DNA from: Lobosporangium transversale
Taxonomy: Eukaryota
Length of the DNA stretch: 64,000 nucleotides
Direction: 5' to 3'
Assembly: GCF_002105155.1 (NCBI RefSeq)
Contig: NW_019029012.1
Span: 310,001 to 374,000, forward strand
A program made the translations under genes and the position numbers. The notes below the pieces were generated by a model. It made no database searches, had not been told where the DNA came from, and saw only the letters and a program-made list of their open reading frames with translations. Below, piece by piece: positions 1 through 27,642 of this stretch; the stretch's first letter is position 1, and the number at the start of each line of letters is the position of its first letter.

Positions 1-454
1 AACCCCCCTTCTTCAGGTTTATGAATCGTTGATTCATTTGATTCCATTCGCAGATTCATCTCAATAAACTCGTACTTTTGTAATCATTCGCAACTGCCTT
101 GCCCCTGCCTTTGTCCAAGCTGCTCAGATTTCGACTTCTTTTCTTTTGCGTCCCCTTTTTTTTTCCTCAACGATTTATCGCGTGTTCTTTTCATTTTTCA
201 TTTTTTCATTTTTAAAAAAGACTGACCGAGCACACGCTCATACGCTCAACAGTGCTCTTTCACTATCAGCCACGACCCACTTTCATTCTGTACCAACATA
301 TTCCTTCTTCATACTGCCTGTTGTTGAACAAAAAAAAAAAAAAAAAAAAAAAGCTGTTCACAACTTAACACAACAGTTCTAGACCCGGCGCATTTTTTTT
401 TTTTTTTTTTTTTTTTTTTGATACACATTCAAAATAAGGAGACTGCAGCACAGA

Positions 455-1015
455 ATGCCGATCACACGTTGGGCATTCGATATCCGGCAAGCATTGCTGT
501 TGGAACACATTGAGCCCTTGGTTACCTCGCTGGTAGAAGATGATAGCTCCAATATCGTTCCAGTAACAAACCTCTTAAACTTCTTGCAAGGCGAAGACTC
601 GGACTATTTACTTCGGTATCGAAATGACGATGACATTCGGCGCGCCTTGATCGGTCGACTCATGATCCATGCCTTCTTTGTCGCGCATTATGGTTGTCAA
701 TGGGAGACAATGGTCTTTTCTAGGTCCGCGACTAATAAGCCCATCTTGGTAAGTATGTTATTTATATAGTATAACAAGAAAATGATCAGAATATTATTCT
801 CAAACAATCCATGGTAAAAAAAGGAAATAGACGTCTTATCTGGCGGCGATTAAAATAGCACTTTCTTGCATGTTCCCACCGTCAATGATGGCTTATGAAT
901 TGAAGGCGACTAACGCGTCAGAATACCCTCATTTATTCATCTCATTCTCGTGTATAAAGTGTTTGAAACATTTGAAGTCATACTAGTACACTACAGCTCA
1001 TTACCATCGATCGTT

Positions 1016-1046
<31 letters not shown>

Positions 1047-1353
1047 CTTGGTTTGCATGATACCTAGCTAGAGCCAGAACACCTTCGGAATGTCAGCTTT
1101 AATGTCTCACATCATGGAAACTGGGTCGTCTTCGTGGGAAGTACATCTTTGGAAAGCAACGTCCGACTTGGCACTGATGTCACGGACTTCAAGGAGCAGG
1201 TTCCAATGGAGCCATTTGACGCATTTTTATCATGCTATCGAGATCAGGTATGGTTCTTTTTATTTTTTTCCCCAGATTCATGCATTCAATGGCTACACGA
1301 TTAGCATGATGTCATTTGTCTTTTTTTATTTTGTAACTAATTCCTGGGTTACC

Positions 1354-1386
<33 letters not shown>

Positions 1387-2172
1387 CATGCTTACTGACA
1401 CGACGCCTTTCAAATGCTGTTGACTCGAACACCCAATAGTTCACTTTGAACGAGCTATCGTTTGTGAAGAATGCACCTTCAGATCTCTTGGACTCTCAAA
1501 ATGCTAGCAACCAGCGTAGGCGGTTCTGCAGGGTCTGGTGTCTCAAAGAGTCTGTAGGCAAGGCATTGGGTGTTGGCATCGATTACAATCTTAGATCAGT
1601 TGAGTTTTCAATCCATGAGGAGGAGGAGACTCAAAAGGTAATAGTTTTGCTTAAGTATGAATGCCACACAATTTCGTAGAAAATGCTTCACACAACTACG
1701 CGTTTAGTTGCGCATAGCCATAAAACACAGCTCGCGTAACTTACCAAGCTAAAGAGCTCTGGGGTAATGTGAAGCTAGGCTAGCACTAGGAATGGCCCAA
1801 GGAGATGGGGAAATGAGAGCCATATCAGTCAGCACCGATTAATGACATGGGCTAACCACTTGCTTGATTAAATCGTGATTTATCTTGTCCATCATTCTAA
1901 CCAATGTCTTTTCCCCGTATCGCCTTTGATCAATACTGCATTAGCCGATACACTCCACAACAATGCAAGTTCATAGCCCAACACCGGACTTCCCAGGAGA
2001 TGGATGGTCATTCGAGGAAGCATTGCTTGACGACGAGCACTGTTATGCTGTTGCGGCGCATTCATCGGATGTGGATGATAGTGAATCATTGATGGACGGC
2101 TCTGAGATTAAGCGCCTCGATTGGAGGGAACTGCTCAAAGATGCTGTTCCTTATCCGCCTCAGTTTTCATAG
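455..2172 (+). CDS. Sfp/Lys5-type 4'-phosphopantetheinyl transferase (AASDHPPT-like), 4 exons: 455-748, 1068-1247, 1440-1637, 1945-2172
   Basis: Spliced translation gives NKPIL, FNVSHHGNWV, LGTDV and WCLKESVGKALGVG motifs typical of Sfp-type PPTases. GT-AG junctions keep the frame. Confidence 0.9.
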
Positions 2173-3627
2173 CCCTACAATAATGGCTTCCTTTGCCAAA
2201 TCATCCGACCCCTACTGTGTACAGTAAAATGCATCCTTTTTACTCTTCAATAATGTTGATTGGTATAATATGATCAGAGTAGTTCTAGCGAAAAGATATA
2301 GCATTGATCCAAGCGCACCGTGTGATCAATCCATCCAAGCCTCTTTTTTTTTTCTTCTTTTTTTTGTTTGTATCGACAATCTGCACAGGAGAGAGGCCTG
2401 TAGCTTACACGGCCATGCCCATAATGCTTGCCATAAATAGTTTTTAGCTCCATTCTCATCCGATAGTTGTAGAGTGGACGTGTGTTGGTTTACAGTATCC
2501 CACGATACATAAATGGTACAATCACTACTTCTCGTCTTGTCTTATTCCAAATCTTAATATCAGAGAGAGGTTAGTCTGGAGAGACTCGGGCTTGAATGTC
2601 CTTAAACCTGCCTGGTATGGAGCTCTCTTATTCGTGGCCGACGAGGGAGGGACGTGCCTCACTAAGAATAGAGCCGCCAGGACATTTGGTTTCTAACAGT
2701 CATATGACCGTAATCATACCGAGATCGACAGGGTGTTGCGTTTGTTGACATAATTTAGGATCACATTCTTTTTATTATTATTGATATCGTAATATTTTCA
2801 GTATCCACAATTAGGAGATTTTCTTCGCGCCAAAGTCTTTCATCTGTTACTTTTATGGGTGAATCCTCCTCTTGAGGCCCTTTTCCGACATTTACCACAA
2901 ATAACGCTCTAGACGGTTAATATAAGAGGTTGAAGAAATCTCTCTGTTTCTCAACCTTTTCAGATCAAGCAAATTTTCAAGTTCAAGCTAATCTAGTCCA
3001 TTATTCACTAATTTCAATTTTCGCCAAGTCCTAGATCCTTGAAGGCTCAACTATTGAGGTGATCCATAAAGTTTTTCTTCTTCTTGGCGTTCTTACGGTT
3101 CTTTTTGCGGTCTGATTCCTTTTCGTAGATATTTGTCTCCCACCGTGGGGTTGAAAAAGAAGGAAAGAAGGATTGTGGGTAGTTTGACGTAAATGGCATT
3201 TGTCACCGAAAATCAATACTCTCCGCCAGGAGGCCCACTTTTTCGATATTCCTCAGTTGAAGAACGAATGATCACAAAACCCTGTGGCCAAACGGAACTG
3301 TTCCCACACATATATTAAACGCTCCTGTCGCTTAAGGTTGGTTACGCAACATTCTGTGGGCGTCATTTCAACTTCTCCCCCCCCCTAGCCTACCATCTGC
3401 TGATCATTCAGCCATACCACCTTCGATTAGAAGTATCACCATCCGCAACTACCTTAGTGATCGAAACGAGGGAGTACCAAGGAAAGCAGGGCCTCCCTGA
3501 GCCTCCAACCTGCACTTGCGAACACCCCAACGGAGGTTCATCGAAAGGAGACAGAACTCTCCTCTGGGCTAAGTCAAGGCGAACATCGCGCAACAATCCA
3601 TTTTGTGGCAAGGTTGCACATAAAGCG

Positions 3628-3647
3628 GTATCCAATCAACGCGTTCA

Positions 3648-3679
<32 letters not shown>

Positions 3680-3782
3680 CGAGGACCCACGACGTCATGT
3701 AGGATTTATTTAGATGTTAGCTCCATAAATGGAGTCCCTGAGGACCTGTGGCACGGCTCTACTTCGTATCCAATCAACGCGT
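3628..3782. repeat. Exact 17-bp direct repeat GTATCCAATCAACGCGT (3628-3644 and 3766-3782)
   Basis: Two identical copies read directly; each contains CCAAT and ACGCGT. Confidence 0.8.
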
Positions 3783-3919
3783 CCACACGACTAGTATCTA
3801 CGACAAAGCCACATTGTTATACACCATCTTTACTTGCATTCTCGTAGTATCATGTGATATAATTAAGGTGTTTATTTAAGTATATAATATATTTAATCTG
3901 GAACATTTCCATAATCAGG

Positions 3920-3991
3920 TCTTTGGTAGTATAGTGGTCAGTATCTCCGCCTGTCACGCGGAAGACCCGGGTTCAATTCCCGGCCAAAGAG
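3920..3991 (+). tRNA. tRNA-Asp (GTC), intronless
   Basis: Acceptor stem TCTTTGG/CCAAAGA with discriminator G, D-arm TAGTATAGTGG, anticodon stem TCCGC/GCGGA around the loop CTGTCAC, T-loop GGTTCAATTCC, and TTTT Pol III terminator just downstream. Confidence 0.96.
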
Positions 3992-4613
3992 CAATCTTTT
4001 GATCGCGAAATTTTTTTGCTTCGTTTGTCGTTTCCTCACTTCCTAGTTAATGTCCCAGAAGTATTGTCCGCATCAAAGGATATGCCCTGTTGATAAACGG
4101 CACTTTTGTTTGATATAATAATGAATAAAAGAAATAGAAAAAAGAAAGCTTGACCAAAAAAAAAAAACAACAAGTGACATCTAGAGGCTGTGGAAGAATG
4201 CGTCCGATGCAGTATGCCATTGATATGGTGAGGACAAATAACAGAGTTTATATGCTAACAAAACTAATGTTTAGGCTTATATATACTTGGGAAAAACAAT
4301 ATAGTTTATTGGTGTTTTGAGACTGATATAATACTGATATTGTCACTACTCCAGAGGGTATTCTCTTCTGCAGACAGGGTCACCGATGGTTTTCATTTAT
4401 ACATATAATATGATTGCTCCCGATAATGGCAGTTAATATTGAGACTGCAAAACCGGGATTTGGCTTTCACTAACCCTCTTTTCGCGGAAAAGAGAAGAAT
4501 GAAAAAGTGAAAGAGAACAAAGAGAGAAAGAGAGAAAGAGAGAAAGAAACGATGAGAGAAAGAGAGGGAGAGAGAAAGGAAGGAAAAAAAAAGAGAGGCA
4601 TTTTGTTTTCCTT

Positions 4614-6809
4614 TTAATCATCAACGTCTCTTGGTTCACATGCAAGCCGATACCATTCCTGAATGGTGATTCTTTTGGGTGGTGGAGGTTTGGTGTCATG
4701 ATTCCAATAATCTTTGTTAACCCAACGTTCCATACTAGGAGGCCATGCAGTTGGACGGACGAAAGGAACCAATTCCAAAAAGTCCAGATAAGCCTCCAAC
4801 CACTCCTGTGTTTCTTGATTTCCAGCCGCATTGAGGTAAATCCCAAGGGCTCGAAGCCAAGACTCCTCCCGTGTGTAGCCACCATGCTTGGGGAAGAGTA
4901 AGGACAGGTAGCTCTCACGGAAGGGTCGATAAGGGATAACAACCTTGGGAGCAAAAGGAGAGTTGCCTAGTCGTTGGTGTCGAAAATACATGCCCAGGAA
5001 CTGAACACCTTGAAACTTCTTATAGTCCATGGCGCTGTCATCCATCAGTCGATTAGTTGAGAATGATTTCTTTCCGGACCAGTCAATGTTGAAGCATTCC
5101 TTGACTACATCTGCGAGGATCTCTTTGGTTAGACCCATCCAAGGTGTCTCCAGAGCCATGACCATGTCATCGCCAAGGACTACCATCTCACATTGTGTCA
5201 AGATCAAGTAGACTCCAATGCTTCCTTGACGTTTCTCGGCCTCATAAATGAGCGCAGTGTAACCCAAGAACATGGTGATGATGCTCTGAACCAAGGTGTT
5301 GAAACAGTTCCCACTTGTGGTTCCCACGTGTTTCTGCAGTCGAATACCATCATCTCGACAGATGATCACCTCCACCAAGCTTTTGTAGACGAATGTCCAC
5401 AAGGTATCGTACTTGGGGTTCATTCCATCCTCGTACTGAGCTCGGAGTACTTGTAGGGCTTCTTGGACAAGCCAGCCATCAATTGCAGCATCGAATTTCT
5501 TTGCGTCGAAACAATGATAAATAGCATGCCGAGACATTTTGTTGACGAATTTTTCGGCTCCGCCATAGTACCAACTCTGGCCGATGTAGATAGGCCACTT
5601 ATCATCCAAATAAGCCTTGGTAAGGGGCTGTTCCAGTGAGCCCAGGATCAATAAGTCGCGATGACTCAACATAAGGATTAATCGACCCATGGATGTGTTG
5701 ATGGATTCCAAACTGTCGAGATTCCTGCTGCCGGATGAAAACAACCAACTCTCAGCATCCGGGTCCTTGATTTTGCCGTGCATATCCTTGTCCATCTCAA
5801 CTTGTTTTCCCTTGCCTCCCAGTCGAGTATCGTGTGGATGGACTAGATTGCCATCCATGAGCGACGTCCAGACTTCTTCTGCATGTCGAAGCGCATATGT
5901 GTGCGCTTCTCTTCTTTTATAAAGTTTATCGCGCGCATACTCCAGTCCAGCAAACTTGGAGCCATCATAACGAACATCCTTAAGGGACTCGACCGTAGGC
6001 ATGGAGAGTTTTTCCGGAAGAGCCATCAAAGCCTTGACATGCTCAACGGCTCGTCGAAATGCCTTTTCAAACTTTGCAGGCATCACTCGTGGCTGACGAT
6101 TAAAGAGCTTTAAATGATTCATCTGAATCCTGGAACATGTTTTAATGTACGCGCACTGGTCCAGATCTAATTCAGCAGGCAAGGGCGGTGGGCGAATCTT
6201 GGAGAAAACCTCGACAAGTGGATCTCTAGGTGCATGTTCAATGATGTTGTCCATTTGTTTATAGAACTTTTTGTTGTGATGGTGTGTAAAATGATGGTAC
6301 TCCACCTCCAGCTGACGCTTGATCCGTCTCAGCTCATTGATATCGAAGAGCCGAAATCCCTCGGTGAATTTGTGTGGTGGATTCGGTAGTTGTCTAAGGC
6401 TGCTGTCACTTATTATAGAGAGTCTTTGCTCAAGTTGGTCGACGCCCAGAGCAATCAGTCTCTGGTTATGATCGGCCCATCCGCTTATTATTGTCGCACG
6501 ACTGATGGGGTTGGCATAGCGGTTTCTATTATCATGGCCATTGACATTGTTGTTATCCGTTGTAGTGGCGTCAATATTAGTAGCGAAGCTGTACCTTGGC
6601 GCTGAAGTGACGCCGTAGTCAACAATAGGTGGCGCAGAGCTAGCGTCAAAGGACCTAATACGAGTGGACAGGCTATTGTCAGTGCCGATGACTTGGGTGC
6701 TTAAAGCAACGTGTCCTGTCCCCGTTTGGGCTTGTGGTTGCTGAAAATTAGTCACTGTCGGGTAACGCCTTTGGTTAGACGAGGGGGAAGTGTAACCAGT
6801 GCCTATCAT
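4614..6809 (-). CDS. Endogenous viral element: RNA-dependent RNA polymerase of a dsRNA virus (Durnavirales; Curvulaviridae/unirnavirus-like), 731 aa, intronless and uninterrupted
   Basis: Viral palm motifs in canonical order: F (RLGGKGK...GRLILM), A (FDAKKFDAAI, ~5490-5507), B (GTTSGNCFNTLVQS, ~5285-5324), C (LGDD, 5166-5174), E (QFLGMYF). No introns, unlike all neighbouring genes. Confidence 0.92.
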   Translation of the reverse strand: MIGTGYTSPSSNQRRYPTVTNFQQPQAQTGTGHVALSTQVIGTDNSLSTRIRSFDASSAPPIVDYGVTSAPRYSFATNIDATTTDNNNVNGHDNRNRYANPISRATIISGWADHNQRLIALGVDQLEQRLSIISDSSLRQLPNPPHKFTEGFRLFDINELRRIKRQLEVEYHHFTHHHNKKFYKQMDNIIEHAPRDPLVEVFSKIRPPPLPAELDLDQCAYIKTCSRIQMNHLKLFNRQPRVMPAKFEKAFRRAVEHVKALMALPEKLSMPTVESLKDVRYDGSKFAGLEYARDKLYKRREAHTYALRHAEEVWTSLMDGNLVHPHDTRLGGKGKQVEMDKDMHGKIKDPDAESWLFSSGSRNLDSLESINTSMGRLILMLSHRDLLILGSLEQPLTKAYLDDKWPIYIGQSWYYGGAEKFVNKMSRHAIYHCFDAKKFDAAIDGWLVQEALQVLRAQYEDGMNPKYDTLWTFVYKSLVEVIICRDDGIRLQKHVGTTSGNCFNTLVQSIITMFLGYTALIYEAEKRQGSIGVYLILTQCEMVVLGDDMVMALETPWMGLTKEILADVVKECFNIDWSGKKSFSTNRLMDDSAMDYKKFQGVQFLGMYFRHQRLGNSPFAPKVVIPYRPFRESYLSLLFPKHGGYTREESWLRALGIYLNAAGNQETQEWLEAYLDFLELVPFVRPTAWPPSMERWVNKDYWNHDTKPPPPKRITIQEWYRLACEPRDVDD

Positions 6810-7099
6810 TTTCTGTCTGAGTCACAACTTTGTTACGGAGTACTTGTTCCTATGTCAAGATGGAGCAATTAACAAGGAGGACGTTTTTTAAAGAGCGTGA
6901 GAACGAAAAAAATATATGTGTGAGAGACAGCAGCAATGTTAGCAAACGTTTTTTTTTTTTTTTTCTTTGTTTCTTTCTTTCTTTCTTTTTTTATCATTAT
7001 ACGACAAAGGGATTTGCACGTATGCTGTATATGGTCTAAACTTGAATCGCACGCACAATAAATCACAGTACAATGTGAGTAAGGGACATTGAAGGAAAC

Positions 7100-7200
7100 A
7101 AAAGGAGAGTAAAGGGAAAAAAAAAAAGAAAAAAGAGAAAAGGAGAAAAAAATACCACAGGAAGGCAAATGCGCCGTTATTATATATATTTATATTTTTT
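7100..7200 (-). promoter_or_regulatory. Putative core promoter upstream of the RdRp ORF (TATA followed by a pyrimidine-rich tract)
   Basis: Minus strand reads TATAAATATATATATAA (~7178-7194), then a long CT-rich run, the same layout seen upstream of the fungalysin and Git1 genes. Confidence 0.4.
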
Positions 7201-7564
7201 TTTTAATTGTTTCGAAAGAGTGAGTGGCGCAGAACTTGTGAGACTAATGATTGATGTATTAGAATAACTGGTTCAAAACAGAGCCGGTTGACGGGACGGG
7301 ATTTTTGGAGGCCTTTCTACTTTTCTGTCGTCTCTATTCCGCCTTTTGATCCCGCTAGAAGCAAGAAAGAACAAGAGAGGTTTGATTGATCTTACTGATC
7401 TTAGTTTGTATGTATACTTTATCACTGCCACACAACGCATATTTCTAATTCTCTAGCCTCAACACCCCTCTTTCTTCACCATGTGTTTCTGTCAGCCTGT
7501 CAGCATGACATAAAAAAAAAAAAAAAAAAAATCAAATTTCTTTATGAAAACGTGCTATATTCTA

Positions 7565-9310
7565 TTAGTCAACATCATCTGCGGAAGGAGATGAAGTCGA
7601 ATTGCTATTACTTTCATGTCGAAATGGACTGTATCGCGTAGAAGACGGAAATGCACCAGGAATAGAGTTTACTCTTGATGTGAGGATCCTATTTCCAACC
7701 TCACCTCCTTCAGATGTGGGTCCGGTCGGAGTTGGTAGGGTCTGTGCGTTGTTGTCCTGCCCTGAAGACTGGCCGTCATTCCCTCCTGAAGTTGAATTTC
7801 TCTGTTGATTGTTATCGTGCCCACCATGTTGGGGTACCAATTCAAACCGACAAGTTGGGCAAGTACCATTCAATTTAAGCCAAGGCTTGATGCAATCTTC
7901 ATGGAAGATATGCCTGCATTTCAGTTGCAACAAGTTATCTTCTTTTGTGAACTCGTCTTTGCACACGCTACACTCAGTTTTTGCTGCTAACTCTTCGTCC
8001 GTGAGGATATGTGGTGGTATGCTTTCAATGATCTCATCGGATGCTCCAACAGGTCCGTTCTGGCGCCTGAAATCCCCGAAAAACAATGATTTAGTATATG
8101 GTCCGCTAAAACACTGAACTCCAGGACATACACAGTCAGAGCAACATAGTCTTTTAAAGAGATAACTTACCCTTGCATCTCCATCAACTGTGTAATGACA
8201 TCATCCAATCCTGCCTGACTGAACACATAATCCCCAGGATTGCCAATCATATTAAATAGACCACTCAAGCCCGTATCATGACCAGGGCTATCTGAGGCGC
8301 TCTCCGTAGCAGGGCTCATCTCTTGTTGCATTCGCTCCAAAAAGCTATAGGTCGATAATGGCCGTGTGATTTTACGGTAAATATTCATTATTGTCCTCAA
8401 GACGTCAACCCCTGTTCACTTCATTCAATCCATTACCGTTCTTCCTACCTAATTAAAAACGCTCGAGATTGTTGAAATCTATCAGCTCTATTTGGGTCAT
8501 CGGGGTCGCCATTTGCTTGTGAAATGTCCACAATTATATCATGGCTATCATGGCCATCATCATCGTCGCCATCATCACCAACGTTGTCATTCTCGTCATC
8601 ATCTGATATTATAGTGGTGAGGCCATCAAAGCGATCCCTAGACCGTAGTGGGTGATCAAGTAGAGTAAGGGAGTCAGAATGGTCTCCTGTTGCTATGTCT
8701 TCACTGCGTCGGGCCCGTGGTCGACTAGCCTGTTCCCCTACTGGTCGCATCAATCCTACAAGCTGAACCATACGTTGTAGATCCTCGATGAATAATTGTA
8801 TATGCCCTTGCTCGTCACCGTTCTCGATGTCTTCGCCTGCATTTTCAACAAAGTTGCGCGGATCGTTGTCTTCTTCGATCTAGTTCAAAAAGAAATCGTC
8901 ATGCATGTTAGGGGTTATTGCACCGTTAATTGAATTTCTATCGCAAAGATAATCATTTTCACAGAACTTGGGAAAAAAAAAAAAAAAAAAAAAAAAAAAG
9001 AAAAAAAAAGAATGCCTTTGTACCTTTTCAACAAATTCACTATGGCATTCTGGGCAGAGTGGATGTGGTACCATGAGCGGGGTGATTTCTACAGCACACT
9101 AAATGCCAAGACATCAAAGCAAACATCCAAAATTCGTTAAAATGACATGTGCTATTTCATTGAATGCGTCATTGCTCATGTAACTGTGCTGTTTGATTGG
9201 AAAGAACCAGTAAAACGGAGAAAAGTGCTTGCCTGGTGACACCAGAATTCGTGACGAGGACGAGGGCTAGCTACTGCCGCTGCGTCGTCGTGAGCTGAGG
9301 AATTGTCCAT
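7565..9310 (-). CDS. RNF126/RNF115-like E3 ubiquitin ligase (N-terminal zinc ribbon, C-terminal RING-H2), multi-exon
   Basis: N-terminal FWCHQC...CPECHSEFVEKI, GNPGDYVFSQAGLDDVITQLME and CSVCKDEF...CRHIFHEDCIKPWLKLNGTCPTCR. First intron is GC-AG (9099-9232). Confidence 0.92.
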
Positions 9311-9945
9311 GAAGTTTGAAGCCTAATGCTTAGTTTTGTGAGGTTTAGAGTAATGTCCTTGCGTCTCGTTCCAGGAACAGAGAGTTTGAATGGTTTTTAA
9401 TATTGTTTCCTTCACTAATAGCTATTTTTCCCTTGATAACTTCGGGGAAGGTGGTATAACGATAAAGAGGAGTAAGGGTCGACGAGGACGGGCAAGGAAC
9501 GGAATTGAAGAAGAAAGAAGAAGGAAAAGGAAGTAATTCAACAGCAGATCAGACGAGGACCTGACAGCCCTCGTGCTTGCTCGTGACCGTGTTTGATGGA
9601 CAGCATGCTCAAGGATTGCAATTGTGGAGGTAAAAATGACAAGTCTTACATGCGGGAATTTTTTTTTTAAATTGATGCATGAATTAGTTTACATTCCTCT
9701 CCATGGCCTATTACTGAGGGTAATGCTATTTCTCATGGGCATACCAGATGAGTGCCATTATTGAGAGAAAGGTGCTCAGGATTATGAAGAAGACCCAGCT
9801 TATATACATGCCTCATACTTCCATTGGTATGCCGATCATGCTAATTGAAACTTTATTTTCCATTATTAATAAAACCTTGAGTCCGTGGATAATGTCTTTT
9901 CTTTCCTAACCTAATAACACTCATTGCTCCTCATTCACCAGTGCA

Positions 9946-12462
9946 ATGATCAATTCACATCACAATGCAGCATCCTCTTCTTCCCACCTGAACAGGCATA
10001 CGGAGGAATACTCACCTTTATGGAAAGGCCATCAACAGCCACCTCTCGGAGGTCCAGTAGTCTCAAGATCTAATCTTCGATACTCTGCCGTTTCACAATC
10101 CAATCCCGAATCACCTATAATAGACACAGATGTTGCTGAAAACAGACTACAGGATCTAGGCCGTTGTATGGATGGGGATCCATTCAGATCACCCATACCT
10201 TTACTCTACCTTTATGTAGTGCATGCTCTCTGGTAAGTCAGGTTTATAGATCCAGTTTTAAACGGCGTTAATCGCTTTTAATAACAAATAAAATTGATTA
10301 TTAAATAATAGTATTATTATTGATAGTACATTTGACGAACGCATGTATGAGTTTGCATCTTATTTTTTCATCATGGAGATTTTCAAAAATACGTTGTTGC
10401 CAATGTCCATCTATGGGTTTTCTACAACAGTAGCAGGCATCATACTGAGCACAACTGTCGGATCGTTCGTAGACACCACACCACGATTAAAAGGTGAAGT
10501 GGGCTTTTTTTTATTTTTTATTTTTTTCCACGTTATACACTTGTCTAGCGTTTTTTTCCTTATCTGTTGTGTCACGTTCTTTTTTTTAATTTTTCCGAAC
10601 TAGCGGTCCAGTCATTCCTCTTGACTCAGAAATTGACTACCATCCTCAGTGCCCTTGTATTTTGGGCACTCTTGACATGGTTTGATCCATCATCGGATAT
10701 TCATATTCCCGCTATAAAATCTACGAAAACAATAGTGGCAATATCAGAGCCTACCCTTTCGCTCTATCAAGGCTATTCCTTGTTTACCTTCTTGGTCATA
10801 GCGAGCGGAGTTTTGAAGCTCTCTGCACTTGGGTGGTCTATTTCAATTGAACGCGACTGGATCGTATCTCTCTGTCAATCCGATTCTGAAATGTTGACAA
10901 GTAAATAAATTCATATTCATCAATACATCAATAATAACTGGAAAAAAAAAAAAAAAAAAAAAAAAAGCGTTGATTTAGAAATGTCGTGTATTGATTTTCT
11001 CTCTCTCCCTTACTAGAAATCAACGTCTTCATGAAAAGGATTGACCTTGTTTGTAAACTGGTATCACCATTGGCGTTTGCCACGTTGCTCACTCTGCTCC
11101 AGAACCCGGGGTATTGTAGTCTAGTCATAGCAGCCTGGTGCATGTGTTCGTTTTGTCTAGAACTCGTGCTTGTAAGGCGGATCTGGTTTAATTCCCCCAT
11201 CCTGCGCCTACCACGATCCATTCGATCCCATCGTAATAATAATGTCCGAACACGTCGCGATCAAAAACATAAGAAGGCCAACAGCTATAGCAGTGTGGTC
11301 AACCCTCTCTTCACCACAGAATACAATCATGATGAAGTAGAGCCCCGACGAGATCTGCTTTCAGAAACAGAGTCTGAGATAGCACAGTCTTCAACCAGAA
11401 AAATTCACCCCTCACCTTCACTCTTTAGAAGAGGTATCCACTCCTTTCAGGACTATGCTCATCATGTCGTGTTCCTTGGTAAGGGAATGAAAAAAAGAAA
11501 AAACAAACTAAAGCTATGTTAAAGTCTTAATGTCTTCAATATCATAGGCATTGTCTGATTCCTTTTTTATTATTACTATTATTTTAGCTTCACTATCCTA
11601 TGCAATCATTTACATCAATTTGATGAGGTATGATCTGCCATTTTTCACCGTTCATTCCGTTCATTATTAGCTTGCAAAAAGTGATTCTTATTTTACTCGG
11701 ATCTTTTTTATAGTGTTTCGGGAACTATGATTGGGTATCTAAAGTGGCGTGGTTTGACTGCAAGTTCGATTGCTCTATTGAAGGGAGTCTGCACATGTTC
11801 TGAACTCTTGGGGACCATTCTTATGCCCATCACAAGCCGTTATATTGGCCTGATCCGTAGTGGAGCTTGGTCAATCTGGTTTGAGGTTGTCACACTGACA
11901 CCAGTGCTCCTTTCAATCTATTCGGATCATTTGCCTATCCAGGCGATGATCTTTGGTAAAGTAAAAAACAAAAAGAGAAAGAAACAAAGAGCATGGTGAA
12001 CTATCAAAATTGTCAACAATATCGTTTTTTTTTTTTTTTTTTTTTTTTTTCAATTTATTGAATTTATTTTTCCATTCTTTTCGTATGCGCATTTGTATAG
12101 CTGGTATGGCACTTTCTCGTGTCGGAGTATGGTCTTTTGATCTAGTGATCACTCAAATCATGCAAGAGTACGTTGAATCTGATGCTAACAACGCTGGTAT
12201 AATTAACGGCTGGCACTATTCCATGATGAGCCTATTTGAACTGATCCAGTTCATCTTGACCATGGTCTGGTCAGACCCACAGCAATATTTTATGCCTTGC
12301 ACACTCTCATTCGTTTGTGTCATCGTGGGTGCTGCCGTGTACTCTGCGTATGCCATGCGTATGCGTGGCCATCTGTTCCATTATCATCGGAATAATCTCA
12401 CTGCTCACATATCACCCGCTGTTGCAGTGAATGAGCAAAGAAGTGAAGATGATAGCAGATAA
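9946..12462 (+). CDS. Ferroportin (SLC40A1/FPN1 family) metal exporter, multi-exon
   Basis: Spliced HALCTFDERMYEFA, ISIERDWIV, MKRIDLVCKLVSPL and SRVGVWSFDLVITQIMQE are ferroportin-family signatures; multiple TM segments. Confidence 0.9.
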
Positions 12463-12600
12463 AGTAGATTTTGAATAAATCATCTTTATCTATTGTACAA
12501 AGGGGGGTTTTTTCTTCTTCTTCTTTTTTGTCTATTCTATGCCAAAACAGTATATCTATTGGATGCTTTCAGTTCATGAGGGTGTTTATCACTAATCCCA

Positions 12601-13658
12601 TTATCGCGCTCCAGGTGGCAGTACATCGCCACCGTGGCCCGACCATTGCTTTACATAGTCCATTACAGCTTCATACACTAGGAAATTAAGCGAGTGGATC
12701 GGCATGGCTCTGTAGCATGTGACACTCAGTCCTCGATACAGCCCGCGTACACCTTCGCGTCTGACAATATCTCGAGCACAATCAAATGCGCCAGAGTACT
12801 TTGGATTAGATACCAGAACCTCTTTCTGGACTACACTCTTGACAAGATCAATTGGGAAGACCACCAACCAAGAGAATACACCGCAGAGACCACCAGCAAA
12901 AAAGTGGACCATTGGTCCTGGACCTTTGAATTGAGCTGTCATCGGTGTTTCCGCCGATCCAGATGTAGGTTTCATGTCGTGGTGGGGTCTAATATGTTCA
13001 ATCGTTTCCGACATAAGTCGCTTGATGGTCTCATAGCTTGAAAAGTAGATACCTGTGCCCAACAGGTCTCTAGCGATATGCAGGTTGGCGCCCTTGTACA
13101 GTCCAGTCCAGCCCTTCTTTTGTACAATAGCCTTTGCAGTCTTCCAACTAGATGCTCCAGCCTCTTCTTTCGGTGGTATTCCATATTGGGAGACCGATCC
13201 ATGGGACTGCCTCTCTGCTCTCACAGCGGCCGCAGGCGACACAGCTGAACTTCCAGTTTTTTTGTCCATAGGCAATCCTTGTCTTAAAAGAGTATCGCCT
13301 GTCAATGCTGTAATCTCTGCCTCCTTCCTCGCATGCATCTCCATTAATTTCTCCAATTGTCGCTGCAGCTTCACAAGTTCCAGAGGACTGGACATCAAGG
13401 CAACGACTGTCCCTGCGACTGATCCTGAAATAAACGTAAGGCCAATTAGCGATGGTATCGTATTACCATGCATGGCGTCAGCATAACTCCTGACGTTTTG
13501 TTTAGTTCCCTCGTACACAGAGAAGGAAATGGATTTGATGATCGAGACCGTAATAAGAGGTGGGATCATACCTAAATCAATTATCAAATCAAAATCACAT
13601 CCAAGTTACTCTCTCTCTCTGTTTGCTCTAAAGAAAGTTTCTTTGATTCCGTCTATCC

Positions 13659-25638: not shown

Positions 25639-27244
25639 TTAAACCATCATCATCTGAACCATAAACACAATCAATAACAACTCTGTAAAATAAACCATCT
25701 TCTGGCTCTGATCGCCAAACGATAGTAGTAGCGATGCTGATGAAGTGTGCGATGACGAGGTTAATTCGACTGTAGAATTGGTCCTATCCTCGTCATTATT
25801 CGATTCTTTGGAGTCATTAGCAGTCAGTGATAGGAGCTCGACGCTAGTTGGGGCTGTACGTGGCATTTTAAATGCGCATGAATAAAAAAAAAAAAAGTTT
25901 GGGACGAGATGAGAGCAAATGCAATATTTATGATTGTTAGTAAACACATTGGACAAGTACACAGATGTATTTATGGAGTGGACAGTAGTAAGTCAAGTAT
26001 TTCAAAAGAACTTGCATGATCCGCTTGCGCGACTTTCACCCGTCTTATGATCTACTCCGGTCTTGAGTTTACCCTTGGTAATGTCTTCAATGTACCCTTC
26101 CATCTTGTTTTGTAGCTCCTTCGTAAACACATTCGAAGCCTCATGCACTGGTGCCAATTTAATGGCACTCTGCGCTGCATCAGCATTCACACCGAAGAAA
26201 ACCGTCGATCCACCTGTTAAGTTGGCCCGTAACACACTCTGCATCACAGATCGCACAAGGACCCTGTAATCAGTCTGAATCGATGTCAAGATATGCTCGC
26301 TACCGGGGACAGACCCATACGCCCAGTTCGTAACCCATTCATCCGATCCAGATCCGATCCCATAGACCCCTTGCTGCACTGTCAGATTCTTGAGCGTCGT
26401 GGTTCCAAAAATCGAGGCTGCATTAAACACCACACTCACTTTACGCGATTTGAACGCCTGGGACACAGAGGTCGATGTCTTTGGATCTGCATCAAAGGTC
26501 CCTGCATAGATACCATAGGCACGACAGGTTGAACACGAAGCCTTAACGCCGTTACCGAACCCGTTCACTTGGCGGCGCACACTAGGCTGGTCTATTCCTC
26601 CAATGACTTTTGAAATCGATACATCACTTAGTAACCAAGTAGAGCTATCTATTCATCTATTCTCCCTTGAAAATGCCATCGTATCGTATCATATCATCAG
26701 ACTTACCTGCGACTTTTCCTCCCCGTGTCTTGGCTACTTCACCTGCCAAGAGACCGGCCAAATAACCGATCTGATCCTCTGAATACATCACACTCACAAT
26801 GTTCGCCACTGGCGGTGTAAACTCGAAATCTGCGATTGCAAACAACTTCTGGCCATTTGTATTCGCTGCAGCTTGAATGGCCTTTGAGGGGAAATACCCA
26901 AGAGCCATCATAAAATCATTCTCCTTCGCCTTGGGAGGAATCAAGCTCGAATAAGCTTGCAGCGTCTCTGACGCAGGTGTGAACGTGTGCAACGTACAGG
27001 TTTTGTATTGATAACCTGCATTCGTAGGCAAGTTCCCGATACATGCCTCCTTAGCCCCCTGGAGTGCCATCGCGTTACTCGTCCCTTCCTTAGTCCCATC
27101 CGGACCACCTTGCAAAACAAGGGCCATATTGACGTTACTGTTGCTGTTGGTCTGAAGCGCTAAAGCCCCAGTAATGCAGTGTAGTGACAGCAGAAGAATC
27201 ACAGCTGCAGCATGGACATCTACTTGGAAGAAGTTGGAGTACAT
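25639..27244 (-). CDS. BMP/PnrA-family (basic membrane protein) substrate-binding protein with signal peptide and probable GPI-anchor tail; exons 27244-26707, 26606-26016, 25853-25639 (447 aa)
   Basis: FAIADF, YSEDQIGYLAGLLAG, KVAVIGGIDQPSVRRQVNGFGNGVK, YAGTF, VVFNAAS, YGIGSGSD and ILTSIQTDY match the BMP pattern. Hydrophobic N-terminal signal. The third exon is S/T-rich with a hydrophobic C-terminus and joins in frame through a GC-AG intron. Confidence 0.82.
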
Positions 27245-27642
27245 CGAAGAAAAGTATGTATAAAATTGACCTTTAACCAGAAGTTTAGCTGAGAAATATG
27301 AAAGAATTTGTAAGAAAGAAACAGAACAATAAGCAAAATCAGCAAGCTTGTGGAGGAGAAAAGGCAAAGATGGATGAGTCTTTTGACATAAAGAAGATTG
27401 TCTACAACTAAGCATCCTTTATTGATCATGTTCCCATCAATGTCGTAAACCACCGACTTCGTGGTCTTATGAACTGGAGCAAACGTCTCCAAAATCACCC
27501 ACCATCAACTAGGATCAATAACAGAAAATCGACCATCAAGCTATATTTATTGAGCAAGCGTGTCGATCAATTTTGATTGTGAAGACATGTTATTATTAGA
27601 TGAGATTGCTATTCTCATAGGAATTCGCGCATGTCACCAAAT

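What the first reader, a model, noticed from the sequence alone, without database searches (positions are those of the whole stretch)
4614..6809. Intact endogenous dsRNA-virus RdRp (Curvulaviridae-like) embedded among fungal housekeeping genes
Seen: a 731-codon ORF with no stops, frameshifts, introns or poly-A/T runs, and complete viral palm motifs (DAKKFD / GTTSGNCFNTLVQS / GDD / FLG). It lies between a tRNA-Asp and a host RING E3 gene. Known: this is a viral right-hand RdRp, not the cellular double-psi RNAi RdRP (DxDGD). From memory, the DAKKFD..RDDG..GTTSG..NTL.QS context resembles orthocurvulavirus/unirnavirus polymerases, which have no DNA stage. Inference: the gene arose by reverse transcription and integration. 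The other accessory genes here (CRN, TRP) are decayed, so an intact catalytic ORF means either very recent capture or a selected function, such as antiviral defence, dominant-negative interference or RNA amplification.
Basis: partly seen in the sequence, partly recalled or inferred. Interest (0 to 1): 0.92.

Follow-up and report, generated by a model that had tools for sequence, protein, structure and literature searches.

The report
Fungus-tamed RNA virus polymerase gene
A soil fungus carries, as an ordinary spliced chromosomal gene kept at the same spot across much of its family, the RNA-copying enzyme of a fungal RNA virus; the gene was already reported, and it likely still makes double-stranded RNA, possibly for the fungus's gene-silencing defence, which is untested.

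Summary
The 731-codon ORF is real and encodes an orthocurvulavirus-type RdRp (Pfam PF00680; core model pLDDT 92.7). It is neither an artefact nor a recent capture. One DNA contig bridges both flanks. An RNA run holds the whole ORF with a spliced 207-nt 5'-UTR intron. Orthologues occur across Mortierellaceae, one clade, next to the same RING E3 gene in 45 of 57 named gene models. Synonymous sites are near saturation while catalytic motifs are kept in 68-70 of 70 models. The gene itself is already known: Myers et al. 2020 reported it in Lobosporangium transversale as an expressed novel fungal gene of untested function, and Brown & Firth 2025 showed host co-phylogeny. Added here: synteny, the intron, selection, loss of the motif-E lysine in 70 of 70 models, and evidence that Phycomyces/Apophysomyces copies are a second, independent capture (AU p 0.004 and 0.014), against the published single event. 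Best mechanism (inferred, about 45%): an active, template-unspecific polymerase that makes dsRNA for host RNA silencing.

The parts
4614..6809 (-). Coding sequence of the virus-derived RdRp, 731 aa, single coding exon
   Evidence: RNA contig covers 4601-6848 with no gap or changed letter
6360..6809 (-). N-terminal extension (about residues 1-150), mostly predicted disordered, fast-changing, with a YANPIxR-type motif and a helix found only in some Mortierellaceae copies
   Evidence: pLDDT <50 for 1-102 and 133-155; motif in 8 of 30 printed Mortierellaceae rows, in none of 42 viral, sister or Mucorales rows
5670..5687 (-). Motif F region (GRLILM, residues 375-380)
   Evidence: kept in 69 of 70 models
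5490..5507 (-). Motif A (DAKKFD, D435 and D440)
   Evidence: 70 of 70 models
5283..5324 (-). Motif B (GTTSGNCFNTLVQS); the viral His after SG is Asn in the fungal clade
5166..5174 (-). Motif C (GDD, 546-548); dropped in the public gene model P0002 but present in DNA and RNA
   Evidence: 68 of 70 models
4989..5000 (-). Motif E (FLG-M); the following Lys, invariant in 30 of 30 viral rows, is Met/Thr/Ala in 70 of 70 Mortierellaceae models
6850..7056 (-). Spliceosomal 5'-UTR intron, 207 nt, GTGCGT...CATAG
   Evidence: joint in RNA run X5, absent from the five DNA-run layings that cover it; ends read
7057..7085 (-). Upstream non-coding exon (5' end not mapped)
   Evidence: same RNA contig as the ORF
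4323..4613 (-). Likely 3' UTR, including a GA-rich microsatellite
   Evidence: RNA contig at 4323-4514 and ORF contig running into the repeat; the link across the repeat is inferred
7565..9098 (-). Host RNF115/126-like RING E3 gene, the conserved upstream neighbour (first exon lies beyond 9233)
3920..3992 (+). tRNA-Asp(GTC), downstream neighbour here; not found in L001 or L002 (L002 ends inside the gene)

Best explanation
This is an old, domesticated host gene descended from the polymerase segment of an orthocurvulavirus-like dsRNA mycovirus: it is chromosomal, transcribed, spliced, syntenic across Mortierellaceae and under purifying selection, and its product is predicted to be a still-active RdRp that likely copies single-stranded RNA into dsRNA to feed the fungus's RNA-silencing defence. 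Shown: integration, one origin for the family, transcription, splicing, selection, intact catalytic residues and fold. Inferred: capture of the viral mRNA by a retroelement reverse transcriptase next to the RING E3 gene in a common ancestor; translation; catalysis. Most speculative: the RNA targets (viral or transposon RNA) and the hand-off to Dicer. My odds: domesticated gene about 0.97; catalytically active about 0.8; silencing role about 0.45.
For: Integration: DNA contig of run X4 spans 3963-7107 in one 3162-nt record, X3 bridges tRNA to ORF, depth is level with flanks. Expression: run X5 shows 12 spliced joints over 1-13000, one of them in this gene, and no cover at 2605-3472 or 7182-7445. 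Orthology: 31 hits at 56-99% (28 named Mortierellaceae), next 37 at 32-44%; one clade, SH-aLRT 100, 100/100. Synteny: 40 of 52 stand-alone named models have a RING E3 locus tag or accession at plus or minus 1, and 5 more models are fused to RING E3 sequence; DNA loci L001 and L002 both show RING E3 directly upstream on the same strand; RdRp and RING distances correlate over 18 taxa, rho 0.57, Mantel p 0.001. Selection: four-fold sites differ 62-70% while proteins are 58-68% identical; LWL85 dN/dS 0.17 and 0.21 in 2 of 3 pairs, ML 0.01-0.05. Constraint follows the viral enzyme: 101 of 121 virus-conserved columns keep the same residue; 12 of 38 Asp columns are invariant and they include D435, D440, D547, D548. 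Fold: pLDDT 92.7, pTM 0.93; TM 0.85 to a fungal dsRNA-virus RdRp model; Z 29.4, rmsd 3.4 over 516 residues to the polymycovirus polymerase 9jkc. Precedent for stand-alone activity: purified HetRV6 RdRp, same genus, copies heterologous ssRNA without primer or capsid (PMC8473416, abstract and passages). Curvulavirids are targets of fungal silencing (PMC12711003, abstract and introduction).
Against: No evidence here links the protein to Dicer, small RNAs or virus resistance. Mucoromycota already have cellular RNAi RdRPs (recalled, not checked in this genome; no genome was held). Mortierellaceae isolates that list this gene still carry other RNA viruses, and 4 of 11 transcriptomes screened list no 'unassigned' RdRp, M. 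alpina among them although its genomes have the gene (PMC7482067 Table S1). The motif-E lysine is lost in 70 of 70 models and 8 virus-conserved positions carry fixed changes, so the activity may be altered or reduced. dS is saturated, rests on three sequences, and NG86 dS and YN00 failed in 3 of 3 pairs. Only one RNA run was available, as contigs. 12 of 52 models had no adjacent RING tag among those seen.
Confidence: 0.45

Rival explanations
1. The domesticated protein is an active nucleotidyl-transfer enzyme with a housekeeping or developmental job outside silencing: tailing RNA 3' ends, or copying a specific cellular RNA or low-copy RNA replicon.
For: Steady conservation, higher than the neighbouring host E3 (70% vs 56% mean identity over 18 taxa), fits a constitutive job more than an arms race. 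HetRV6 RdRp has terminal transferase activity (PMC8473416 abstract). Loss of the motif-E lysine could favour short products (inference).
Against: The whole template channel and thumb are conserved, not just the palm. dsRNA chromatography was negative in 16 of 18 Mortierellomycotina isolates (PMC7482067 Table S1), against an abundant dependent replicon.
Confidence: 0.27
2. The protein is a counterfeit polymerase that blocks related curvulavirids by competing for viral RNA ends or the segment-2 protein (dominant-negative immunity).
For: Precedent: a Debaryomyces capsid-like gene confers immunity by negative complementation (PMC6166632 abstract). No named free curvulavirus from a Mortierellaceae host appears among the hits. 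Fixed changes at virus-invariant sites could poison replication.
Against: A decoy need not keep the metal-binding aspartates, yet they are invariant. Closest free viruses are only 40-44% identical. The bat L-gene analogue did not affect a Borna virus minireplicon (PMC4865735 discussion).
Confidence: 0.2
3. Recent, neutral insertion that has not yet decayed, or a strain-specific passenger.
For: The coding region is intronless, as a fresh cDNA would be.
Against: Same locus in nine named genera, near-saturated synonymous sites, intact frames, acquired intron.
Confidence: 0.01
4. Assembly chimera or contaminating viral cDNA.
For: Contigs often break at the simple repeats on both sides of the gene.
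Against: Single DNA contigs bridge the flanks, depth equals flanks in four DNA runs, spliced transcript, independent syntenic loci.
Confidence: 0.005

Closest known systems
Endogenous 'unassigned' RdRp gene of Mortierellales and Phycomycetaceae (Myers et al. 2020, PMC7482067)
   Same: The same gene: the paper names Lobosporangium transversale, Dissophora, Mortierella spp.; found through mRNA; called a novel fungal gene of untested function (passages and Table S1 rows).
   Different: The passages read give no synteny, intron, dN/dS or motif analysis, and propose one integration before the Mucorales-Mortierellales split; my trees reject that single clade.
Mortierellaceae Durnavirales-like EVE clade (Brown & Firth 2025, PMC12548735)
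   Same: 64 sequences, 66% mean similarity, tree mirrors the host tree, judged ancient (sections 13 and 19).
   Different: Those sections leave open ancestral insertion versus strong host specificity; shared position beside RING E3 settles it for one insertion. No expression or selection test in the sections read.
Orthocurvulavirus (Curvulaviridae, Durnavirales) RdRps, e.g. Metarhizium brunneum, Trichoderma harzianum, Cryphonectria parasitica bipartite mycoviruses; HetRV6
   Same: 40-44% identity over the core, same motifs and fold, nested in their tree.
   Different: Chromosomal, spliced, no second segment seen; N-terminal extension; motif-E Lys lost, SGH to SGN, GDDN mostly to GDDM.
eEBLL-1, bornavirus L gene of Eptesicus bats (PMC4865735)
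   Same: Intact, transcribed, selected viral RdRp gene of unknown function; same two hypotheses, interference and RNAi (abstract, discussion).
   Different: Negative-strand virus origin, kept for over 11.8 My in one genus; here a dsRNA-virus enzyme whose relative works alone in vitro, kept across a family.
Totivirus-derived genes of Scheffersomyces and Debaryomyces (PMC2805616, PMC6166632, PMC13756089)
   Same: Fungal nuclear genes from dsRNA viruses, transcribed and under purifying selection (abstracts and passages).
   Different: Mostly capsid genes, patchy, often lacking viral functional residues; here the polymerase alone, with catalytic residues kept.
Cellular RNAi RdRPs (QDE-1/RDR, double-psi barrel; recalled)
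   Same: Proposed role: ssRNA to dsRNA for silencing.
   Different: Unrelated fold; only PF00680 matched and the model is a right-hand polymerase.

Membership tests
Viral right-hand RdRp | Palm motifs A, B, C with catalytic aspartates, plus D, E, F | tested here: met
   motif E keeps FLG but not the following Lys
Viral right-hand RdRp | Closed right-hand fold | tested here: met
   pLDDT 92.7; Z 29.4, rmsd 3.4, 516 aligned to 9jkc
Viral right-hand RdRp | Template-directed RNA synthesis | not testable with these tools
   needs enzyme assay
Curvulaviridae / Orthocurvulavirus (as a virus) | RdRp falls within the curvulavirid RdRp tree | tested here: met
Curvulaviridae / Orthocurvulavirus (as a virus) | Bi-segmented dsRNA genome (PMC12711003 introduction) | tested here: not met
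   chromosomal DNA bridged to host flanks, spliced transcript; it is virus-derived, not a virus
Curvulaviridae / Orthocurvulavirus (as a virus) | Segment-2 proteins and conserved terminal sequences | not tested
   no segment-2 sequence and no whole genome were in hand
Domesticated non-retroviral EVE | Integrated, with host flanks | tested here: met
Domesticated non-retroviral EVE | Orthologous position in related species | tested here: met
   45 of 57 named models by tag, accession or fusion; 2 of 2 fungal DNA loci
Domesticated non-retroviral EVE | Purifying selection on the reading frame | tested here: met
   (three sequences, dS saturated)
Domesticated non-retroviral EVE | Transcribed by the host | tested here: met
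   spliced RNA contig in one run; also PMC7482067
Domesticated non-retroviral EVE | Protein made and a host phenotype | not testable with these tools
   needs proteomics and knockout
Cellular RNAi RdRP (double-psi barrel) | Pfam RdRP family match and double-psi fold | tested here: not met
   only PF00680 at E<=1; right-hand fold
Single Mucorales + Mortierellales endogenous lineage (Myers et al. 2020) | Monophyly of Mortierellaceae and Phycomyces/Apophysomyces copies | tested here: not met
   AU p 0.0037, LG+G4, 38 rows; p 0.0137, LG+C20, 30 rows, quick tree

The most novel reading that the evidence does not exclude
Early-diverging fungi have twice, independently (Mortierellaceae; Phycomyces plus Apophysomyces), turned a curvulavirid polymerase into a permanent host enzyme, and the Mortierellaceae protein is a working right-hand RdRp that amplifies RNA silencing: a viral replicase recruited against viruses, doing the job of the unrelated cellular RdRPs.
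Probability: 0.3. Interest if true: 0.85.

Novelty: already known. Interest (0 to 1): 0.5.

Why it matters
Host genes taken from non-retroviral RNA viruses are mostly capsid or nucleoprotein genes, and no domesticated viral RdRp among the papers I read has a shown function. This one is kept across a fungal family with its active site intact, a relative of it works alone in vitro, and it sits at a fixed, known locus. That makes the open question (what does a eukaryote do with a viral replicase?) directly testable by enzyme assay and knockout. The result also corrects public gene models that delete the GDD motif or fuse the gene to its neighbour, and revises the origin from one capture to probably two.

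Tried and rejected
No whole genome was held, so copy number, segment-2 remnants and the host RNAi gene set were not examined. Single-protein search of solved structures found nothing useful. First metagenome scan found no locus; the second gave two; viral contigs gave two 1.9-2.8 kb loci. Run X7 does not cover the stretch and was not used. No changed letters among the runs laid on 3750-7700, so they may be one strain and give no polymorphism data; I cannot tell whether X5 is independent of data used in print. Contig depth was not used to rank expression. The first fold, from 29 close sequences, was poor (pLDDT 60) and was replaced by the core model. P0130 was dropped from motif counts: it is the downstream gene in a fused M. 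alpina model, not an RdRp. P0133 lacks the GDD stretch and P0148 lacks motif F; both look like gene-model errors but were not checked against DNA. The downstream neighbour is not conserved: the M. alpina one has no match in the window. No RdRp hit was named for Actinomortierella, Modicella, Benniella or Entomortierella parvispora although their RING genes were found; absence is not established. Two look-ups in earlier findings returned nothing. Paper searches for a functional follow-up listed none; the library lacks most subscription journals. A search for a dated age of Mortierellaceae found no paper, so no age is given. Brown & Firth supplements gave no hits for species names or accessions; their figures and Myers' Fig. 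9 could not be seen.

Full report
Observation. The ORF at 4614-6809 on the minus strand gives 731 residues without a stop; by composition such a frame has a chance near 2e-17. Pfam returns one family at E<=1, viral RdRP_1. The gene lies between tRNA-Asp and a RING E3 gene; the wider window holds ordinary fungal genes (phosphopantetheinyl transferase, ferroportin, mitochondrial carrier, adaptin, eIF5A, Sec1, ribosomal S2).

It is chromosomal. Seven public runs were listed, all under one organism code. One 3162-nt DNA contig of X4 runs from the tRNA (3963) through the ORF to 7107, and an X3 contig bridges tRNA and ORF. Depth over the ORF matches the flanks in X1, X2, X3 and X4.

It is a host transcript. 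Run X5 behaves as RNA: over 1-13000 it shows 12 joints with spliceosomal ends and no cover of 2605-3472. One contig covers 4601-6848 without gap or change and then jumps 207 nt to an upstream exon; the skipped stretch, 6850-7056, reads GTGCGT...CATAG on the coding strand. A cytoplasmic dsRNA virus would not be spliced, so this RNA comes from the nuclear gene. The same contig keeps the GDD codons that the public model P0002 (724 aa) leaves out. No cover at 7182-7445 lies between this gene and the RING transcript. This is one run, kept as contigs; levels cannot be ranked.

It is family-wide and old. The core search gave 68 hits: 31 at 56-99% identity (28 named Mortierellaceae, the top one Lobosporangium transversale at 99%), then 37 at 32-44%, led by bipartite mycoviruses. 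The 31 fungal rows of the tree form one clade on a long stem. Searching with the RING part of a fused Gryganskiella model and reading cluster members let me compare locus tags: 40 of 52 stand-alone named models have a RING E3 neighbour numbered plus or minus 1, and 5 further models are fused to RING E3 sequence; 12 had no neighbour among the RING records seen, which were not exhaustive. Many models are strains of one species, so these are not 57 independent events. Two metagenome loci confirm the order in DNA. RdRp and RING distances agree over 18 taxa (rho 0.57, Mantel p 0.001), with the RdRp core the more conserved, 70% against 56%.

It is under selection as a polymerase. Among the window gene, L001 and L002, four-fold sites differ at 62-70% while the proteins are 58-68% identical; dN/dS is 0.17-0.21 by LWL85 (2 of 3 pairs) and 0.01-0.05 by ML, with NG86 dS and YN00 undefined through saturation. 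Motifs A, B and D are kept in 70 of 70 models, F in 69, GDD in 68 (P0130 dropped). Of 121 columns conserved in 30 viral and virus-sized environmental rows, 101 keep the same residue in the 31 fungal rows, 8 carry fixed changes and 12 vary; 109 of those 121 are conserved in the fungi against 163 of 455 other columns (Fisher p 1e-28). The core folds with pLDDT 92.7 and matches fungal dsRNA-virus polymerases. Against a simple 'unchanged replicase' reading: the lysine after motif E, invariant in the viral rows and kept in the Mucorales and sister rows, is Met, Thr or Ala in 70 of 70 models.

Probably two captures. Phycomyces blakesleeanus and Apophysomyces carry related genes on long contigs. They form their own clade; the Mortierellaceae clade is sister instead to unnamed environmental sequences, some on 1.3-3.2 kb contigs and some on 7-145 kb contigs. 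Forcing the two fungal groups together is rejected: AU p 0.0037 under LG+G4 on 38 rows and p 0.0137 under LG+C20 on 30 rows, 8 left out, quick tree. The hypothesis came from print, but I had seen earlier trees, the intervening sequences are not proven free viruses, and the Mucorales flanks were not seen.

Mechanism. Capture by reverse transcription is inferred from the lack of a DNA stage in this virus family. A poly(T)-headed element between 17-nt direct repeats at 3628-3785 looks like a retroposed insertion and hints that such machinery has acted in this genome, but it has no shown link to this gene. For function, the kept aspartates argue for catalysis rather than a decoy. HetRV6 RdRp, from the same genus, copies foreign ssRNA alone and without primer, and adds terminal nucleotides (PMC8473416, abstract and passages). 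A host-encoded copy would therefore be able to make dsRNA, the trigger of fungal silencing, which targets curvulavirids (PMC12711003, abstract and introduction). I put this at 0.45, a housekeeping RNA-end or RNA-copying job at 0.27 and interference at 0.2. In Myers' Table S1, 16 of 18 isolates gave no dsRNA band, 7 of 11 transcriptomes list an unassigned RdRp, and several isolates still carry other viruses: no abundant dependent replicon, expression not seen everywhere, protection at best partial.

What is known. Myers et al. 2020 (PMC7482067; passages and supplement rows) describe this gene, naming L. transversale, as an expressed novel fungal gene of untested function from one ancient integration. 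Brown & Firth 2025 (PMC12548735; abstract, sections 13 and 19) describe 64 members and host co-phylogeny. Analogues are bat eEBLL-1 (PMC4865735; abstract, discussion) and yeast totivirus-derived genes (PMC2805616 abstract and passages, PMC6166632 abstract, PMC13756089 passages). I found no functional study in searches; figures and subscription journals were out of reach.

Verdict. Real, domesticated and already reported. New here, as far as the passages read show: conserved locus, host intron, selection on the active site, the motif-E change and a likely second capture. Interest 0.5; 0.85 if the silencing role holds.

Noticed in passing
window 3628-3785: About 90-nt element headed by a poly(T) run between 17-nt exact direct repeats, 135 nt upstream of tRNA-Asp; DNA depth spikes in that bin in X1 and X3. 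Looks like a retroposed SINE or LINE 3' end with target-site duplication; one copy in the window.
   Followed up: partly
P0002 and P0133: Public gene models that omit the GDD stretch; for P0002 the window DNA and the RNA contig keep it. Six other models fuse the RdRp to a neighbour (five RING E3, one other gene).
   Followed up: partly
P0051, P0052, P0189, P0200 (unnamed, contigs of 7-145 kb): Further likely endogenous copies in the sister clade; P0051 has GDE in place of GDD. Hosts unknown.
   Followed up: partly
P0054, P0276, P0190, P0286: Apophysomyces and Phycomyces copies keep GDDN and the motif-E lysine, so they look closer to the viral state than the Mortierellaceae gene.
   Followed up: partly
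window 26002-27418 (-): Two ORF stretches match Bmp/PnrA, a bacterial-type ABC substrate-binding family, inside what appears to be a larger fungal gene.
   Followed up: no
window 9098-9233 (-): The RING E3 first intron has GC-AG ends in the RNA contig.
   Followed up: no
window 3376: Runs X1 and X3 both show one extra C in a C-run, a possible small assembly slip.
   Followed up: no
RING E3 homologues: Mortierellaceae genomes often list two RNF115/126-like paralogues; in the cases seen only one is next to the RdRp gene.
   Followed up: no
window 7063-7089 (-): A possible 8-codon upstream ORF near the 5' exon, read from the sequence; whether the transcript includes its start is unknown.
   Followed up: no
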